Source: Escherichia phage mistaenkt | Direction: 5' to 3' (one strand) | Sequence record: MN850587.1 | Length of the DNA stretch: 64,000 nucleotides | Part shown: positions 47,417 to 53,618 of the stretch, piece by piece | Numbering within the stretch: the first letter of the stretch is position 1 | Layout of the letters: each line of letters begins with the position of its first letter | The notes under the pieces: generated by a model | The model's input: only the letters and a program-made list of their open reading frames with translations | The model's database searches: none | What the model was told of the DNA's origin: nothing | Translations under genes and position numbers: made by a program

Positions 47417-47492
47417 TGGAGCGTCGAAAGGGAGTTGAACCCTCATAATCCTGTTTTGCAGACAGGCACATAGCCGTTTCTGTCATCGACGC
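47417..47492 (-). tRNA. tRNA-Cys (anticodon GCA)
   Basis: Manual cloverleaf: acceptor GCGTCGA/TCGACGC, anticodon loop CTGCAAA, T-loop TTCAACT, CCA encoded. Confidence 0.8.
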
Positions 47493-47499
47493 ATTAAAT

Positions 47500-47592
47500 T
47501 GGAGGAAGATACCAGACTTGAACTGGTACGCCGATTTCTCGGTTACTGACAGTTTAGCAAACTGTTCCCTTACCTTTTAGGGTTAATCTTCC
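47500..47592 (-). tRNA. tRNA-Ser (anticodon GCU), type II
   Basis: Acceptor GGAAGAT/ATCTTCC, anticodon loop TTGCTAA, long variable arm, T-loop TTCAAGT, CCA. Confidence 0.8.
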
Positions 47593-47594
47593 AA

Positions 47595-48329
47595 TTATTT
47601 GTTCAAGGCATCCTTCATTTCTGGAGTTGCGATTGAATCAATCACTCCAGTTTTACAAGCATCATCAAACCAGTCTGGTAAGATACCTGCAAGGAAACCA
47701 TTAATATTCGTTTTCAAGTAATCAGCAATTAACGCTGCTTCATCTGCAATCATCTGAGTGACCTCATTAGCATATGCAGTAATCTTAGCAATGCCCTGAT
47801 TAATCGCTGTAACGGCTTGTGAGGCTAAGGAAGATATAGTGTCTAGTCCTTTGTTGATTGCATCTTGCAAATCACTTAGAACGCCATTCACAGTGTCTAT
47901 GGAGGTGTTAATCAAATCCATAGCTTGTTGACCGTACTCTGTAGCTACTCCCATGATTCCACTAAACGGTGTACAACCAACTTGTTCTCCTGCTGCACCC
48001 ATAACGTTAGAGTAACCTTTAGCTACCTGCATACGTGATGAGAACTCATCTACAGACTTCTGCCCGTATTGAGTCAGTGTGTTAGTTGTCGTTGTAGTGC
48101 TTCCAAGGCTAGTTGAGAAGCTACTTAACAAGGCTGTAGTCAAACCAGCAGCAATAAGTTTATCTTTTACTGTAGGGTCTGATACCGAGCTAATAGAGCT
48201 TACTAATGAAGTAGAAGCGGCAACTGTACCACCAAGAACTGCTGCACCAGTAATAAGAGGGTTAGAGAACCCGTTACCGGATTTAAGGAGACTGAAAATC
48301 TCTTTACCTTGTCCTGTCATCTCTTTCAT
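47595..48329 (-). CDS. Hypothetical protein (244 aa) embedded in the tRNA island
   Basis: ORF track; Ala/Ser/Thr/Gly-rich. Confidence 0.45.
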   Translation of the reverse strand: MKEMTGQGKEIFSLLKSGNGFSNPLITGAAVLGGTVAASTSLVSSISSVSDPTVKDKLIAAGLTTALLSSFSTSLGSTTTTTNTLTQYGQKSVDEFSSRMQVAKGYSNVMGAAGEQVGCTPFSGIMGVATEYGQQAMDLINTSIDTVNGVLSDLQDAINKGLDTISSLASQAVTAINQGIAKITAYANEVTQMIADEAALIADYLKTNINGFLAGILPDWFDDACKTGVIDSIATPEMKDALNK

Positions 48330-48345
48330 TAAGCACCTTTTGAAA

Positions 48346-48421
48346 TTGGCGGGTTAGTGGGATTTGAACCCTCTTCTCATGTTTTTCAGACACGCGCTTT
48401 AACCATATAAGCTACTTAACC
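48346..48421 (-). tRNA. tRNA-Phe (anticodon GAA)
   Basis: Anticodon loop CTGAAAA, T-loop TTCAAAT, CCA. Confidence 0.8.
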
Positions 48422-48429
48422 CATTAAAT

Positions 48430-48506
48430 TTGGGGTGACCTACGGGAATCGAACCCGTATAGACCATGTTCACAGCATGGGTCATTATCCATTTATGATA
48501 AGGCCA
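48430..48506 (-). tRNA. tRNA-His (anticodon GUG)
   Basis: 77 nt with extra 5' G and 8-bp acceptor (His hallmark), anticodon loop CTGTGAA, T-loop TTCGATT, CCA. Confidence 0.8.
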
Positions 48507-48537
48507 CATGTAAGGACTCTCGTAAGAACCCTTAGAA

Positions 48538-48613
48538 GTGGCAGCAGCGTAAGGATTTGAACCTCAATCTTTCAGCTTCAGAGGCTGGAGCATTGCCAGT
48601 TATGCTACACTGC
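48538..48613 (-). tRNA. tRNA-Gln (anticodon CUG)
   Basis: Acceptor AGCAGTG/CGCTGCT, anticodon loop CTCTGAA, T-loop TTCAAAT, CCA. Confidence 0.7.
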
Positions 48614-48620
48614 TATTAAT

Positions 48621-48699
48621 TTGGTACTCCATATCGGATTCGAACCGATACATAACACAGATTTTAAGTCTGGCCTCTCTGCCAATTGGAGTAATGGAG
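48621..48699 (-). tRNA. tRNA with Leu-type anticodon UAA but apparently short variable region
   Basis: Acceptor GCTCCAT/ATGGAGT, anticodon stem CAGA/TCTG with loop CTTAAAA, T-arm ATCGG-TTCGAAT-CCGAT, A73, CCA; 79 nt. Confidence 0.6.
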
Positions 48700-48701
48700 C
48701 A

Positions 48702-48777
48702 TTGGCGGGGGATGTTGGAATTGAACCAACTTCTTCGATTTCAAAGACCGAGGTTTTAACCTTGTAAACTAATCCCC
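48702..48777 (-). tRNA. tRNA-Gln (anticodon UUG)
   Basis: Anticodon stem TCGGT/ATCGA with loop CTTTGAA, T-arm GTTGG-TTCAATT-CCAAC, CCA; A1-C72 mismatch in my fold. Confidence 0.65.
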
Positions 48778-48786
48778 TTTAAATCT

Positions 48787-52026: not shown

Positions 52027-52211
52027 ATTAAATCATCTTTGCAGTAACCTACGCAAACCTTGCTAAAGGGTTTGTAGAGTCATTTCCTATTAAGCTAATC
52101 TAGAATCATGCTAAGGAAATTCATCGGCACTCATGGGACGACATTTAGCTCCATAAGTCACTGCAAAGAGGATTACCAGACCGTTGTTTATCTTAAGTGC
52201 TCCCATTACAC

Positions 52212-52250
52212 CAACACGCCGTAACGTGTGAAGGAATCGAACCTTCGCCT
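52212..52250 (-). pseudogene. Possible tRNA remnant: isolated T-arm-like hairpin (GAAGG-TTCGATT-CCTTC) with adjacent ACACG/CGTGT hairpin, no acceptor stem or CCA
   Basis: T-loop consensus present but no complementary 5' acceptor strand within 120 nt. Confidence 0.25.
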
Positions 52251-52449
52251 TTTCTTTACCAGAGAAATAGATTGTTTTATACTTGCTGTAAACGGTCTTC
52301 TGTAAATTTGTTGAGCCAGACCAAGTTTTAAATTATTCAAATTAATTGGCTTGAAATTTTTAAGTTTGCTTGCTGAATTTGGTCTTCTGCTCCTTTAAAG
52401 AATACTCGTAAGAACTCTTTAAGGGAGGGGCTAAAAAGCCCTCTCAAAT

Positions 52450-52526
52450 TTGGCGAGGTATGCGAGAATCGAACTCGCGGCTCAGGAGAGACAGTCCCGT
52501 ATTTTGCCCATCTAAACTAATACCCC
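52450..52526 (-). tRNA. tRNA-Asp (anticodon GUC)
   Basis: Acceptor GGGGTAT/ATACCTC, anticodon stem CGGGA/TCCTG with loop CTGTCTC, T-arm GCGAG-TTCGATT-CTCGC, CCA. Confidence 0.7.
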
Positions 52527-52532
52527 AAAAAT

Positions 52533-52961
52533 CTATGTACCATTTCTTAGGTACTTCTCTTTACGCCTTGCTGGGTTGTAGTGCTTGCGCCCTTCTGCGT
52601 TTTTAGCAAGTCTGCAAGGTTCACACCTACAACCTCTTCTATAACCAGACACTGTGCCATGTTTAATTGGTGTGTATTTCCTATCACCAATCTGGGCTGG
52701 CCTAGTTGCTTTTGAGTTACATTGTATGTGGCTGTAAGATATATTGTCAAGTGAGAAGAAAAGCTCTTTTGCATCCTCTTCATGTCTCCAAGGAACTTTA
52801 TGTTCTATAGAGAAATCAACTCTGGACATTTCTTTTCCACAATGGTGACACTTATTCTGTCCAGTTTTACAAACCAAATCAAAGAGTAAATCTTTAACAA
52901 GCCTGTTCTGGGCTGTTCCTAAGCTCATACCAAGTTGTGACTTGTAAACTTCATTCTTCAT
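52533..52961 (-). CDS. HNH homing endonuclease with C-terminal Cys-rich zinc-binding tail
   Basis: 142 aa; CHHCGK...DFSIEHKVPW...NISYSHIQCNS (HNH); C-terminal GCRCEPCR; inserted between tRNA genes. Confidence 0.7.
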   Translation of the reverse strand: MKNEVYKSQLGMSLGTAQNRLVKDLLFDLVCKTGQNKCHHCGKEMSRVDFSIEHKVPWRHEEDAKELFFSLDNISYSHIQCNSKATRPAQIGDRKYTPIKHGTVSGYRRGCRCEPCRLAKNAEGRKHYNPARRKEKYLRNGT

Positions 52962-52983
52962 AGTATCAACATCTTATTAAAAT

Positions 52984-53071
52984 TGGTGCGCCGTGAAGGA
53001 GTCGAACCTACCGAGTCATAATGACAAGTGATTTACAGTCACCACCGCTTCCATCTACGGGATAACGACGC
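52984..53071 (-). tRNA. tRNA-Tyr (anticodon GUA), type II
   Basis: Acceptor GCGTCGT/ACGGCGC, anticodon stem GGTGA/TCACT with loop CTGTAAA, long variable arm with GTCAT/ATGAC stem, T-loop TTCGACT, CCA. Confidence 0.75.
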
Positions 53072-53141
53072 ATTTTATTCTATTCAGGCTAAGGACTTGC
53101 ACCTTACAAATCGGTGAGCATTACGCTTCTCTCCCAAATCT

Positions 53142-53218
53142 TGGCGGTGAGTTAGGGATTCGAACCCTATACCATTCGGTTAACAGCCGACCGCACATGC
53201 CTTATGTGCTTCCTCACC
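53142..53218 (-). tRNA. tRNA-Asn (anticodon GUU)
   Basis: D-stem GCAC/GTGC, anticodon stem TCGG/CCGA with loop CTGTTAA, T-arm TAGGG-TTCGAAT-CCCTA, CCA. Confidence 0.7.
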
Positions 53219-53299
53219 ATGTTTAGTATTGCCAGACCGTATCTTTTCATTTTTTCCTATAAAAATTTTTAGATTGCTGTAAACGGTCTTCTGCAAATT

Positions 53300-53376
53300 T
53301 GGAGGCGGGTGCAGGAGTCGAACCTGCCGATACCATGCTAATGAGACATGTGAGACGCCCTTTCTCTATACCCGCG
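53300..53376 (-). tRNA. Second CAU-anticodon tRNA (Met; initiator or Ile-lysidine type not resolved)
   Basis: Anticodon stem CATGT/GCATG with loop CTCATTA, T-arm GCAGG-TTCGACT-CCTGC, CCA; position 1-72 mismatched in my fold. Confidence 0.65.
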
Positions 53377-53459
53377 AACTTTTATGACCAGACCAAACTT
53401 TTAAGTTTTCTATGCGCGAAAAGTAAAGTTGTTTGCTGTACTTGGTCTTCTGTCAAATT

Positions 53460-53534
53460 TGGAGTCGTAGACGGGATTCGAACCCGCGAGCAACTGATTG
53501 AAGGTCAGGTGGCTAACCATTTGCCTTCTACGAC
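53460..53534 (-). tRNA. tRNA-Glu (anticodon UUC)
   Basis: Perfect acceptor GTCGTAG/CTACGAC, anticodon loop CCTTCAA, T-arm GCGGG-TTCGAAT-CCCGT, CCA. Confidence 0.75.
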
Positions 53535-53541
53535 ATTAATT

Positions 53542-53618
53542 TGGTCTCCGTTGAAGGGATTGAACCTTCGACCTCACCGCCCCAAACGGCGCACTCTACC
53601 AAACTGAGCTAAACGGAG
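53542..53618 (-). tRNA. tRNA-Pro (anticodon UGG)
   Basis: Perfect acceptor CTCCGTT/AACGGAG, D-region AGCTCAGTTTGGTAGAG, anticodon stem CGCCG/CGGTG with loop TTTGGGG, T-loop TTCAATC, CCA. Confidence 0.8.

What the first reader, a model, noticed from the sequence alone, without database searches (positions are those of the whole stretch)
47417..53618. tRNA island whose anticodons cover all 20 amino acids, interrupted by endonuclease and protein genes
About 26 minus-strand tRNA genes lie in 6.2 kb. By manual anticodon reading they decode Cys, Ser (2), Phe, His, Gln (2), Leu-type (3), Arg (2), Val, Thr, Gly, Ala, Lys (2), Trp-like, Ile, Met (2), Asp, Tyr, Asn, Glu, Pro - a complete amino-acid set. 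The island is interrupted by two HNH endonuclease genes, two protein genes of unknown function (244 aa and 185 aa), a T-arm-only remnant and at least two candidate sigma70-type promoters. Such a full complement suggests strong translational autonomy or compensation for host tRNA depletion or cleavage.
Basis: partly seen in the sequence, partly recalled or inferred. Interest (0 to 1): 0.6.

Follow-up and report, generated by a model that had tools for sequence, protein, structure and literature searches.

The report
Phage tRNA island hiding Y-RNA module
This is the already known tRNA gene cluster of a Felix O1-like E. coli/Salmonella phage, but its unannotated spacers hold four conserved small RNAs of the Y-RNA type, lying just downstream of a Ro60-like protein gene and so far only guessed at for this phage family.

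Summary
The island is real. ARAGORN minus-strand tRNAs at default settings and 26 at 95% threshold; Rfam supports Glu strongly (53.7 bits) but Tyr only weakly (22.8, below gathering 29). These cover 19 amino acids. The "Trp-like" gene is a conserved but non-canonical tRNA-like RNA that no predictor accepts, so "all 20" is not shown. Both HNH genes, the 244-aa and 185-aa genes and the promoter-like sites are there. The window is an Ounavirinae (Suspvirus/Felix O1-like) phage, and such tRNA clusters with homing endonucleases are published, so the finding as stated is ordinary. Codon usage fits partial codon compensation (AGA is 38% of Arg codons against 2% in an E. coli sample).

The new part is that the "T-arm-only remnant" belongs to a YrlA-type tRNA-mimic Y RNA. 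Three shorter RNAs share its bulged stem and an ACAGCAA motif. All four lie between tRNAs, downstream of a 471-aa protein whose predicted fold matches Ro60. Covariation is strong, and a model built from the stems finds only these four sites in 64 kb. The same model finds arrays beside Ro60-like genes in unrelated phages, always on the gene strand. One preprint on Bas63 guessed that some annotated tRNAs might be Y RNAs; the elements lie in the spacers instead.

The parts
53785..55200 (-). Ro60-like protein gene (471 aa; DUF2828 + DUF7788; vWA domain with a DVSASM MIDAS motif).
   Evidence: Pfam and PHROG 'RNA-binding protein'. AF2 model pLDDT 90.3. The top 11 PDB matches are all Ro60, E 7e-8 to 8e-6, TM 0.5-0.66. 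89% identical to Bas63 gp130.
53738..53766 (-). Promoter-like site, TTGACA-17-TAATAT.
53645..53674 (-). Promoter-like site, TTGACA-18-TAAAGT with TG.
53542..53618 (-). tRNA-Pro(UGG)
53460..53534 (-). tRNA-Glu(UUC), with C33 in place of the usual U33.
   Evidence: Rfam 53.7 bits; ARAGORN at -ps95; loop CCUUCAA.
53383..53457 (-). Y-RNA-like element el1: bulged stem plus ACAGCAA motif. It starts 2 nt after tRNA-Glu and ends 6 nt before tRNA-Met.
   Evidence: R1 67.9 bits; covariation; spacing.
53300..53376 (-). tRNA-Met(CAU) with a C1xC72 mismatch (initiator-like acceptor end) and U37.
   Evidence: (28.5 bits); read from the sequence.
53227..53298 (-). Y-RNA-like element el2.
   Evidence: R1 77 bits; fold z-score -3.1.
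53142..53218 (-). tRNA-Asn(GUU)
52984..53071 (-). tRNA-Tyr(GUA), class II with a long variable arm; a marginal call.
   Evidence: ARAGORN at -ps95; Rfam 22.8 bits, below gathering; tRNAscan-SE calls the orthologue tRNA-Tyr in CHB7 and a pseudo-tRNA in PC79-13.
52533..52961 (-). HNH homing endonuclease (142 aa), inserted between tRNA-Tyr and tRNA-Asp.
   Evidence: phrog_23251, E 3e-67. Absent at this site in CHB7, PC79-13 and Bas63. Only 22 records carry the full junction.
52451..52526 (-). tRNA-Asp(GUC), with U37.
52311..52394 (-). Y-RNA-like element el3.
   Evidence: R1 73.1 bits.
52171..52307 (-). YrlA-type Y RNA el4: the same bulged stem encloses a hairpin, a T arm, an acceptor-like hairpin and a D arm.
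   Evidence: R1 47.2 bits although not in the training set; tRNA model positions 9-63, 31.3 bits; parse and covariation.
51951..52026 (-). tRNA-Lys(UUU)
51870..51946 (-). tRNA-Met(CAU); whether it is an elongator or an Ile2 type was not resolved.
51793..51867 (-). tRNA-Ile(GAU)
51749..51777 (-). Promoter-like site, TTGACA-17-TATAGT; conserved in L025.
51440..51516 (-). tRNA-Arg(UCU)
51088..51170 (-). Non-canonical tRNA-Trp-like RNA: A1-U72, G73, CCA end, and a 9-nt loop C-CUCCAAA-A.
   Evidence: Not called by ARAGORN. Conserved in L003, L019, L025, L026 and L027, with a compensatory anticodon stem.
50985..51074 (-). tRNA-Ser(UGA)
50277..50729 (-). HNH homing endonuclease (150 aa).
   Evidence: PF01844 and phrog_10822. 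Full coverage in only 9 of 253 related records. CHB7 has a PD-(D/E)XK gene at this position instead.
50199..50275 (-). tRNA-Leu(UAG)
50116..50191 (-). tRNA-Lys(CUU)
50034..50109 (-). tRNA-Ala(UGC)
49953..50027 (-). tRNA-Gly(UCC)
49870..49945 (-). tRNA-Thr(UGU)
49699..49773 (-). tRNA-Val(UAC)
49619..49696 (-). tRNA-Leu(CAA)
49364..49440 (-). tRNA-Arg(ACG)
48787..49344 (-). 185-aa protein, DUF7338; function unknown.
48703..48778 (-). tRNA-Gln(UUG)
48622..48700 (-). tRNA-Leu(UAA)
48539..48614 (-). tRNA-Gln(CUG)
48431..48507 (-). tRNA-His(GUG)
48347..48422 (-). tRNA-Phe(GAA)
47595..48329 (-). 244-aa protein, DUF7217; function unknown.
47500..47592 (-). tRNA-Ser(GCU)
47417..47492 (-). tRNA-Cys(GCA)

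Best explanation
The region is the conserved tRNA and small-RNA island of a virulent Felix O1-like myovirus (Ounavirinae, closest to Suspvirus) of E. coli/Salmonella. It has two layers.

Layer 1: tRNAs. There are 26 ordinary tRNA genes (19 amino acids, nearly all with an encoded CCA end) plus one conserved non-canonical Trp-like RNA. I infer that they are transcribed on the minus strand from sigma-70-type promoters as multi-gene precursors and cut out by host tRNA-processing enzymes. They add to the host pool the decoders that an AT-rich phage needs most (AGA, ACA, UCA, CCA, UUA, GGA, GUA, AAG). They probably also act as a reserve when host tRNAs are depleted or cleaved. Two HNH homing endonuclease genes are selfish insertions that come and go between strains.

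Layer 2: a Ro60/Y-RNA module. The island begins directly after a Ro60-fold protein gene, and its first 1.4 kb carries four Y-RNA-like RNAs in the spacers between tRNAs. Each has a 4-bp outer helix, a 3-nt purine-rich 5' bulge, a 6-7-bp inner helix, a single bulged base on the 3' strand and a conserved single-stranded ACAGCAA next to the stem. Three are short (72-84 nt). The fourth (137 nt) carries a permuted tRNA-like domain in the order hairpin, T arm, closed acceptor-like hairpin, D arm, which is the order seen in bacterial YrlA.

Inferred mechanism. Because el1 and el2 begin 1-2 nt after one tRNA and end 6-8 nt before the next, the cuts that release the tRNAs would also release these RNAs. 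The Ro60-like ring then binds their bulged stems. The loop modules engage a host RNA-handling enzyme, as PNPase does with bacterial and Thermus-phage Ro60/Y RNPs.

Shown here: the genes, their conservation, RNA-level covariation, linkage to the Ro60-like gene and the protein fold. Inferred: transcription, processing, protein-RNA binding and the cellular target.
For: Identity of the island. Megablast gives 95-97% identity to EcSzw-2, SUSP2 and PC79-13, and 355 Ounavirinae-type records match. CHB7 and Bas63 carry the same tRNA order. tRNA calls are. The phage tRNAs are only 58-76% identical to E. coli isoacceptors, so they are old phage genes and not recent captures.

Y module: conservation and covariation. 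All four elements are present in 24 of 24 Felix-like IMG/VR loci (in one locus el4 is truncated). On 18 stems from phages whose Ro-like proteins are 50-99% identical, 96.4% of cells pair and 10 of 11 pairs show changes on both sides. The covariation score is 0.695 against 0.208 in shuffles (0 of 500 reach it), and slid controls pair at 24-43%. G-U pairs occur, which fits pairing in RNA on this strand.

Y module: specificity. Model R1 finds only these four sites in the 64-kb window, including el4, which was not in its training set. It finds 7 tandem copies next to the Ro-like gene of Aeromonas phage LAh_8, also not in the training set. It finds 18 hits in 75 diverse metagenomic loci, all 18 on the gene strand and most within 2.5 kb of the gene. 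It finds 4 hits downstream of Bas63 g130, all in spacers.

tRNA-like core of el4 and relatives. 93.3% of cells pair and 11 of 15 pairs change on both sides; the parse is. A sister element in L028 hits Rfam YrlA at E 8e-6.

Protein. The predicted fold matches Ro60.

Precedents. Phage Ro60 plus Y-like RNAs are known in mycobacteriophages (PMC4201824) and in Thermus phage phiLo, where they bind host PNPase (PMC12135203).
Against: There is no expression, processing or binding data for these RNAs.

The window's el4 does not match Rfam YrlA even at E<=10, and the YrlA motif GNCGAAN0-1G is absent.

Pfam assigns the protein to DUF2828/DUF7788, not TROVE, and a sequence search of the PDB finds nothing.

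Bas63 gp130 alone, expressed from a plasmid or from the T7 genome, restores T7 growth on a Ppl-defence strain (PMC11482910). At least that activity may therefore not need the phage's Y-like RNAs.

R1 found nothing within the fetched flanks of the Ro-like genes of Vibrio phage CZ01, mycobacteriophage Lewan or Campylobacter phage F375, so the RNA class is specific to a subfamily.

The tRNA-core covariation rests on 8 sequences, 4 of them near-identical, and the structure was derived from those same sequences.

For the tRNAs, the overall test of read against unread codons is not significant under simple wobble rules (p=0.34), and the tRNAs of Bas63 are mostly dispensable in the laboratory.
Confidence: 0.8

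Rival explanations
1. The island is purely a codon-usage supplement. Every RNA in it is a tRNA or a decayed tRNA. The repeated stems are only processing spacers or terminator-like hairpins that help RNase E, RNase III or RNase P separate neighbouring tRNAs, with no link to the upstream protein.
For: Codon enrichment for exact-match codons. The elements sit flush between tRNAs. el4 contains clear tRNA-derived arms.
Against: Only 4 of roughly 25 spacers in the island carry the motif, so it is not a general spacer feature. No terminator-like site was scored at the elements. The conserved single-stranded ACAGCAA and the fixed bulge geometry are kept across phages whose stems have changed completely. 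In unrelated phages the elements track the Ro60-like gene and its strand, 18 of 18, including arrays in LAh_8 with few tRNAs nearby.
Confidence: 0.12
2. The main role of the tRNA set is counter-defence. The phage tRNAs replace host tRNAs that are destroyed by anticodon or variable-loop nucleases (PrrC, PARIS, retron-Eco7 PtuAB, Septu, colicin-like or VapC-like enzymes). The near-complete set is insurance, not codon tuning.
For: Published cases: T5 tRNA-Tyr against retron-Eco7 and tRNA-Lys against PrrC (PMC11555353); T6 tRNA-Tyr against Septu, amplified by a homing endonuclease that sits among the tRNAs (PMC13096335). Here, tRNAs exist for families with no codon bias relative to the host (Phe, His, Asp, Tyr, Asn, Cys). 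Several loops differ from the host's: Glu C33/A38, Asp U37, Met U37, and His, Gln, Leu(UAG), Pro and Ser. All anticodon stems differ. An HNH gene sits next to tRNA-Tyr.
Against: The loops of the classic targets Lys(UUU), Tyr and Arg(ACG) are identical to E. coli's. No nuclease or host is known for this window. Codon data independently explain many of the isoacceptor choices. This reading is not exclusive of the best explanation.
Confidence: 0.35
3. The repeated stems act at the DNA level, as inverted-repeat binding sites for a phage regulator, homing-endonuclease targets or recombination hotspots, and not as RNAs.
For: They are short inverted repeats present in several copies near mobile endonuclease genes. 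One relative (L015) shows a deletion that ends inside el4.
Against: The helices keep pairing through G-U pairs, which would be C-A mismatches on the other strand. The two arms are asymmetric, with a 3-nt bulge on one side and a 1-nt bulge on the other. Orientation is strictly that of the Ro-like gene, 18:0 and all hits. el4 encloses a tRNA-shaped domain with covarying arms. The L015 deletion joins two T arms, that is, tRNA-like homology and not the stem.
Confidence: 0.04

Closest known systems
tRNA gene clusters of Felix O1-like phages (Ounavirinae: Felixounavirus, Suspvirus), such as Felix O1, SUSP1/2, CHB7 and Bas63
   Same: The gene order, tRNA identities and flanking genes (Ro60-like gene upstream; DUF7217, terminase and portal downstream) are the same, at 86-97% DNA identity. 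Published surveys report 17-23 tRNAs and several homing endonucleases per genome (PMC8300805).
   Different: The set of inserted endonucleases differs. The HNH gene between Tyr and Asp is absent from CHB7, PC79-13 and Bas63. The site next to tRNA-Leu(UAG) holds a PD-(D/E)XK gene in CHB7.
Bacterial YrlA/YrlB Y RNAs with Ro60 (Rsr), as in Salmonella, Mycobacterium smegmatis and mycobacteriophages (Chen et al. 2014, PMC4201824; Rfam RF02553)
   Same: A stem formed by the 5' and 3' ends with a bulge. One RNA carries a tRNA-like domain in the order V hairpin, T arm, acceptor-like hairpin, D arm. Shorter companion RNAs accompany it. The RNAs are encoded within 4 kb of, and on the same strand as, a Ro60-fold protein gene.
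   Different: The window's element does not match the Rfam YrlA model. There is no GNCGAAN0-1G motif; instead there is an AGA-type 3-nt bulge and an invariant ACAGCAA. The hairpin before the T arm aligns to the tRNA anticodon arm plus a 5-nt variable loop, not to a variable arm. There are four copies, interleaved with genuine tRNAs. The partner protein belongs to DUF2828 and is not annotated as TROVE.
Thermus phage phiLo Ro60 with Yrl1/Yrl2 (PMC12135203; PDB 9KOP, 9L5Y)
   Same: A phage-encoded Ro60-fold protein (the best structural match) with two or more adjacent Y-like RNAs. There the RNP binds host PNPase and dampens it.
   Different: The phiLo RNAs lie upstream of the gene, carry the CGAA motif and are not embedded in a tRNA array. 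Protein sequence identity to this one is about 16%.
T4/T6 and T5 tRNA regions with homing endonucleases (SegB) and anti-defence tRNAs
   Same: tRNA arrays of virulent coliphages interrupted by homing endonuclease genes. Individual tRNAs there are shown to defeat tRNA-cleaving defences (PMC11555353, PMC13096335).
   Different: The endonuclease family differs (GIY-YIG SegB against HNH here). No Ro60-like gene is reported in those regions. No functional data exist for this phage.

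Membership tests
Ounavirinae (Felix O1-like) tRNA island | A dense array of genes accepted by tRNA predictors. | tested here: met
   24 by ARAGORN at default settings, 26 at -ps95; Rfam tRNA scores of 39-63 bits for 23 of them.
Ounavirinae (Felix O1-like) tRNA island | Sequence identity and shared gene order with named members. | tested here: met
   95-97% identity to EcSzw-2, SUSP2 and PC79-13; same order as CHB7 and Bas63.
Canonical elongator tRNA (applied to the 'Trp-like' gene, 51088-51170) | A cloverleaf with a 7-nt anticodon loop and a 2-nt acceptor-to-D connector, accepted by a tRNA predictor. 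| tested here: not met
   No ARAGORN call for Trp even at -ps80. No Rfam tRNA hit, only tRNA-Sec at 23.6 bits against a gathering score of 47. 9-nt loop and 10-nt connector.
Canonical elongator tRNA (applied to the 'Trp-like' gene, 51088-51170) | Aminoacylation and decoding. | not testable with these tools
   The E. coli Trp features A1-U72, G73 and a CUCCAAA core are present by direct comparison with trpT, but charging is untested.
Ro60 / TROVE proteins | A HEAT-repeat ring followed by a vWA domain with a MIDAS motif. | tested here: met
   AF2 model at pLDDT 90.3. Full-length Foldseek matches to 11 Ro60 chains, TM 0.5-0.66. The DxSxS motif DVSASM is invariant in the family alignment.
Ro60 / TROVE proteins | Sequence-level membership, that is, a Pfam TROVE match or a PDB sequence hit. 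| tested here: not met
   Pfam gives only DUF2828 and DUF7788. phmmer against the PDB finds no Ro60.
Ro60 / TROVE proteins | Binds Y RNAs or misfolded RNAs. | not testable with these tools
   Inferred only from the fold and from gene-RNA linkage.
YrlA Y RNA (Rfam RF02553) | Score at or above the family's gathering threshold of 69 bits. | tested here: not met
   No hit for the window at E<=10. A sister element in L028 scores 40.9 bits, E 8e-6.
YrlA Y RNA (Rfam RF02553) | Architecture: a terminal stem enclosing a V hairpin, T arm, acceptor-like hairpin and D arm. | tested here: met
   Constrained folds and parse. 93.3% of cells pair and 11 of 15 pairs covary.
YrlA Y RNA (Rfam RF02553) | Encoded within about 4 kb of a Ro60 orthologue, on the same strand. 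| tested here: met
   1.5-3.0 kb downstream of the gene, same strand. The same holds in relatives.
YrlA Y RNA (Rfam RF02553) | GNCGAAN0-1G motif near the 5' end. | tested here: not met
   The 5' strand reads (outer helix)-AGA-AGACC...; distant copies have AUA, AAA or ACA bulges.
HNH homing endonucleases | An HNH nuclease domain. | tested here: met
   PF01844 at 23.1 bits against a cut-off of 21.4 for 50277-50729. PHROG HNH families at E 2e-65 and 3e-67 for the two genes.
HNH homing endonucleases | Patchy presence or absence at a fixed site among close relatives. | tested here: met
   Full junctions occur in 22 and in 9 related records only. HNH2 is 99.1% identical in phage Andreotti, whose island as a whole matches at about 89%.

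The most novel reading that the evidence does not exclude
Felix O1-like phages, and many other phages with a DUF2828 gene, carry a previously undescribed subclass of Ro60/Y-RNA ribonucleoprotein. Its RNAs are made as passengers of the tRNA precursor and released by tRNA-processing enzymes. One of them is a permuted tRNA mimic. The particle would act on host RNA or tRNA surveillance or on tRNA-targeting defences, for example as a decoy or shield for the phage's own tRNAs. That would tie the two layers of the island into one functional unit.
Probability: 0.4. Interest if true: 0.75.

Novelty: new variant of a known kind. Interest (0 to 1): 0.55.

Why it matters
The tRNA island itself adds nothing new, because Felix O1-type tRNA clusters are textbook material.

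The Y-RNA layer matters for three reasons:
1. It gives exact coordinates, a structural model and a searchable profile for RNAs that a 2024 knockout study of Bas63 could only guess at. It also shows that they lie in the unannotated spacers, not in the annotated tRNAs. Two opposite-strand "hypothetical proteins" of Bas63 overlap them (bas63_0137 only by about 20 nt at the el3 end) and are likely spurious.
2. It links the large DUF2828 "RNA-binding protein" family (709 phage records) to a specific partner RNA with a recognition motif different from that of known Y RNAs.
3. Felix O1-like phages are genetically tractable and used in therapy and typing. The role of a viral Ro60 RNP in infection and counter-defence therefore becomes directly testable.

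Tried and rejected
- Hand-written stem descriptors were too permissive: 8-28 background hits per window against about 3-8 in shuffles. I replaced them with a covariance model.
- MAFFT alignment of the full-length el4-type RNAs (A2) misaligned the divergent copies. I used the T/AS/D core (A7) instead; L028_d and L028_e remain partly out of register there.
- A PDB sequence search with the 471-aa protein gave only noise.
- Rfam gave no Y-RNA hit in the window. Its weak hits to Dictyostelium Class I RNA, plastid UTR motifs and tmRNA-type models were judged to be side-effects of stems and tRNA-like arms.
- R1 found nothing near the Ro-like genes of Vibrio phage CZ01, mycobacteriophage Lewan or Campylobacter phage F375.
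- The supplements of Chen et al. 2014 (the list of 22 phages) and two Wolin-lab reviews are not held. I could not check whether any enterobacterial phage was on that list.
- A pooled test of codons read against codons not read was not significant. Only the comparison of exact-match codons is informative.
- A two-sequence consensus fold of the 120-nt tRNA-like element used coordinates that cut off its 3' end and was uninformative.
- I considered and dropped the idea that el4's hairpin loop is a working anticodon, because its loop varies in sequence and length among close relatives.

Full report
**What the window is**

A megablast of 47300-53800 finds 355 phage records. The best are Escherichia phages EcSzw-2/EcSzw_1 (95%), Salmonella phage PC79-13 (96%) and SUSP2/phiSUSP1 (97% over 82-83% of the query), all Felix O1-like myoviruses. 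PC79-13 and CHB7 are classified as Ounavirinae, genus Suspvirus. The flanking genes are a large terminase and a Mu-type portal on one side and a DUF2828 protein on the other.

**Checking the observation**

- ARAGORN at default settings minus-strand tRNAs from 47417 to 53618, with no Glu, Tyr or Trp.
- Rfam's tRNA model adds a clear tRNA at 53463-53534 (53.7 bits, anticodon UUC) and a weak one at 52989-53069 (22.8 bits, GUA).
- ARAGORN at a 95% threshold calls both.
- tRNAscan-SE annotation of CHB7 lists the same 26 tRNAs. Bas63 also has 26 tRNA features in the same order, with the Ser(GCU) position labelled tRNA-Arg.
- Twenty-five of the 26 encode CCA.
The extra one is "Trp-like" (51088-51170), which no predictor accepts.
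- Both HNH genes, the 244-aa (DUF7217) gene and the 185-aa (DUF7338) gene are real families.
- Promoter-like sites with a perfect -35 hexamer lie at 53766, 53674 and 51777 on the minus strand. The total count of such sites is not above chance.

**The Trp-like RNA**

It is conserved at about 95% in Felix-like relatives and at 75-80% in phages whose Ro-like protein is only 53-56% identical. Its anticodon stem changes in a compensatory way, from AACGG/CCGUU to GUAGG/CCUAC.

It has A1-U72, G73, an encoded CCA end and a loop whose central seven bases, CUCCAAA, equal the loop of E. coli tRNA-Trp (trpT was fetched). However, the loop is 9 nt long, and an invariant GAUGUUAAGA replaces the 2-nt connector ahead of the D stem. 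It is a functional RNA of some kind, but whether it decodes UGG is open. "All 20 amino acids" is therefore not established.

**Is the tRNA island known?**

Yes. A comparative study of Felixounavirus reports 17-23 tRNAs per genome, placed at one end, with several homing endonucleases (PMC8300805).

The two HNH genes here are patchy among relatives. The full Tyr-HNH-Asp junction occurs in 22 records and the Leu-HNH-Ser stretch in 9 of 253. CHB7, PC79-13 and Bas63 have Tyr and Asp adjacent. This is the behaviour of mobile endonuclease genes.

**What the tRNAs are for**

I used 44 long ORFs of the window (14,424 codons) and 34 annotated E. coli K-12 genes. The codons that pair exactly with the phage's U34 or C34 anticodons are enriched in the phage:

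| Codon | Enrichment over the E. coli sample |
|---|---|
| AGA | 17.6x |
| ACA | 3.3x |
| UCA | 2.7x |
| CCA | 2.4x |
| UUA | 2.2x |
| GGA | 1.9x |
| GUA | 1.8x |
| AAG | 1.7x |
| GCA | 1.7x |
| CUA | 1.7x |

For AAG, the five lys genes seen are all UUU; from general knowledge, K-12 has no Lys(CUU) tRNA. This fits codon compensation.

The two-codon families served by G34 tRNAs show no bias (ratios 0.9-1.2), so compensation does not explain the whole set. The phage tRNAs are 58-76% identical to the host isoacceptors. The loops are identical for Tyr, Lys(UUU), Gly, Thr, Val and Arg(ACG). They differ for Glu (C33, A38), Asp (U37), the first Met (U37), His, both Gln, Leu(UAG), Pro and Ser(GCU).

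Published work shows that single phage tRNAs can defeat tRNA-cleaving defences (PMC11555353; PMC13096335). That role is plausible here but untested. In Bas63 the tRNAs are mostly dispensable on laboratory strains.

**The unexpected layer**

Reading the spacers showed a motif repeated four times on the minus strand: el1 53383-53457, el2 53227-53298, el3 52311-52394 and el4 52171-52307. Each copy folds in the same way:

- a 4-bp outer helix that differs between copies yet always pairs (UGAC/GUCA, UUGC/GCAA, GAGC/GCUC, UUAC/GUAA);
- a 3-nt bulge, AGA;
- an inner helix, AGACCnn/nnGGUCU;
- one bulged G on the 3' strand;
- (A/U)CAGCAA just inside the stem.

All four are present in 24 of 24 Felix-like loci from IMG/VR (in L015 el4 is truncated).

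In more distant phages, fetched through homologues of the upstream protein (63%, 56%, 53% and 50% identity), the same architecture recurs. The inner helices are fully different but complementary (AGUAUC/GAUACU, AGACUA/UAGUCU, GGACUGU/ACAGUCC, GGAUUC/GAAUCC, GAAGAU/AUCUUC), and ACAGCAA is kept.

On an alignment of 18 such stems, 96.4% of cells pair and 10 of 11 pairs show changes on both sides. The covariation score is 0.695 against 0.208 in shuffles (0 of 500 reach it), and sliding the partners drops pairing to 24-43%.

**Specificity and linkage**

A covariance model built from these stems (R1) gave the following results:

- In the 64-kb window, on both strands, it hits only the four elements. 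This includes el4, which was not in the training set (47.2 bits).
- In Aeromonas phage LAh_8, also not in the training set, it finds seven tandem copies immediately upstream of the homologous protein gene, again with new compensatory helices.
- In 75 diverse metagenomic viral loci chosen only for encoding a homologue (38-48% identity, 870 kb), it gives 18 hits at E<=0.01. All 18 are on the gene's strand and most are within 2.5 kb of the gene.
- In Bas63 it gives four hits, all in spacers between annotated tRNAs. Two opposite-strand "hypothetical protein" calls overlap the el3/el4 hits, bas63_0137 only by about 20 nt of el3.

**el4 is a YrlA-type tRNA mimic**

Inside its stem lie, in order:

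1. a 5-bp/7-nt hairpin;
2. a 5-nt linker;
3. a canonical T arm (GAAGG UUCGAUU CCUUC);
4. directly afterwards, a 6-8-bp hairpin;
5. a U;
6. a D arm (GGUGUAAUGGGAGCAC).

These are shown.

This is the order described for bacterial YrlA: 5' stem, V, T, acceptor-like stem, D, 3' stem (PMC4201824). The acceptor-like hairpin differs in every lineage yet always pairs: ACACGU/GCGUGU, ACUCGGC/GUCGAGU, CGCUCCCA/UGGGAGUG, UUCCCCG/CGGGGAA, UUCCUCCA/UGGAGGAA and UCAGGUC/GACUUGA.

On the core alignment, 93.3% of cells pair and 11 of 15 pairs change on both sides. This rests on 8 sequences, 4 of them close, so it should be treated with caution.

Rfam's YrlA model (RF02553) hits one sister element in the 143-kb phage L028 at 40.9 bits, E 8e-6. 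That is below its gathering score of 69. The model does not hit the window's el4. The GNCGAA-type motif of known Y RNAs is absent.

**The partner protein**

The 471-aa product of 53785-55200 is DUF2828 + DUF7788 and PHROG "RNA-binding protein". tblastn finds it in 709 phage records, including mycobacteriophage genes annotated "Ro-like RNA binding protein".

An AlphaFold model built from 43 homologues has pLDDT 90.3. Its 11 best PDB matches are all Ro60: Thermus phage phiLo, Xenopus, human and Deinococcus (E 7e-8 to 8e-6, TM 0.5-0.66, full length).

It is 89% identical to Bas63 gp130. The PhageMaP preprint reported gp130 as Ro60-like by structure and as a counter to the Ppl defence. [quoted passage not shown] The same preprint shows that gp130 alone rescues T7 on Ppl, so that activity may not need the RNAs.

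**Mechanism**

Shown:
- the RNAs are under selection for structure;
- they are oriented with a Ro60-fold gene and physically linked to it across distant phages;
- in this phage, el1 and el2 start 1-2 nt after one tRNA and end 6-8 nt before the next.

Inferred:
- they are co-transcribed with the tRNAs from the promoters at 53766 and 53674;
- they are freed by the same RNase P and 3'-end cuts that release the tRNAs;
- they are bound through the bulged stem by the Ro60-like ring;
- they use the loop module (ACAGCAA plus a hairpin, or the tRNA mimic) to engage a host RNA enzyme, by analogy with the Ro60/Y RNA/PNPase complexes of Deinococcus, Salmonella and phage phiLo.

**Verdict**

The finding as written describes a known feature. 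It is mostly correct on the facts and slightly overstated on "all 20 amino acids" and on "autonomy". What lifts it above ordinary is the Ro60-like/Y-RNA module embedded in it. That module is a new variant of a known kind of system, and it is anticipated in the literature I could search only by one sentence of speculation.

Noticed in passing
window 51313-51432 (-): A 120-nt tRNA-like RNA directly after tRNA-Arg(UCU). It has a 7-bp acceptor stem (GGUCAAG/CUUGACU), G73, an encoded CCA end and a canonical T arm, but no recognisable anticodon arm. It also has two extra hairpins, one with a UAGCU loop. A counterpart at the same position in Yersinia phage P778 (L027 ~12146-12265) keeps the acceptor stem, the T arm and the UAGCU-loop hairpin with changed stems. 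It is absent from the Felix-like loci L003, L019 and L025.
   Followed up: partly
window 52037-52168 (-): A 132-nt spacer closed by a 12-bp stem (CUUUGCAGUGAC/GUUACUGCAAAG), lying between el4 and tRNA-Lys(UUU). Among the loci checked it is shared only with L019 (94%). It contains an AGCUUAAUAGG motif that recurs at about 51665.
   Followed up: no
window 51520-51790 (-): A non-coding stretch of about 270 nt that opens with (and includes) the strongest promoter-like site of the island (TTGACA-17-TATAGT, 51749-51777). It is 95-96% conserved in L003, L019 and L025, with no ORF. Rfam gives only sub-threshold tmRNA-type hits (36.2 bits against a gathering score of 47), which partly rest on the neighbouring tRNA-Ile.
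   Followed up: partly
window 53300-53376, 53460-53534, 52451-52526 (-): Unusual positions in otherwise good tRNAs. tRNA-Met has a C1xC72 mismatch (the initiator hallmark) and U37, but lacks the three G-C pairs of initiator anticodon stems. tRNA-Glu has C33. tRNA-Asp has U37 where a purine is expected.
   Followed up: partly
window 49390-49602 (-): A 70-aa ORF (phrog_10765, annotated in CHB7 as gp87) overlaps the 5' 51 nt of tRNA-Arg(ACG). Either the stop codon really lies inside the tRNA gene or the ORF call is spurious.
   Followed up: no
L015 ~10451-10560: In one IMG/VR relative, el4 is truncated. Its T arm is fused to the T arm of tRNA-Lys(UUU), which deletes the rest of el4 and the spacer. 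This looks like recombination between two T arms.
   Followed up: no
L123 (Bas63, MZ501086) 12749-12901 and 12913-13023: The opposite-strand 'hypothetical proteins' bas63_0137 and bas63_0138 overlap the el3/el4 hits (12686-12769 and 12773-12914); bas63_0137 lies mostly under el4 and touches el3 by only about 20 nt, and bas63_0138 overlaps just the end of el4. They are probably mis-annotations.
   Followed up: partly
L030 (Aeromonas phage LAh_8, NC_048775) 3436-4964: Seven tandem R1 hits lie upstream of the Ro-like gene. Several touch or overlap annotated CDSs, including the annotated start (4866) of the 'RNA-binding protein', whose tblastn match begins only at 5001. An RNA ligase 2 gene lies 4 kb downstream.
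   Followed up: partly
L028 9527-10122: A 143-kb phage carries two short and three YrlA-type elements in tandem directly after its Ro-like gene and a TTGACA promoter, before its tRNA array. An IS605-family OrfB/Cas12f-like TnpB gene sits inside that tRNA region (13393-14652).
   Followed up: partly
window 55281-55652 (-); L025, L026, L027: A DUF5681 gene (123 aa) lies immediately upstream of the Ro-like gene in the window and in three divergent relatives, which suggests a conserved gene pair.
   Followed up: no
window 52533-52961 compared with MN850610 (phage Andreotti): The HNH gene between tRNA-Tyr and tRNA-Asp is 99.1% identical in Andreotti, whereas the whole island matches that phage at about 89%. 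This is consistent with recent horizontal spread of the endonuclease.
   Followed up: partly
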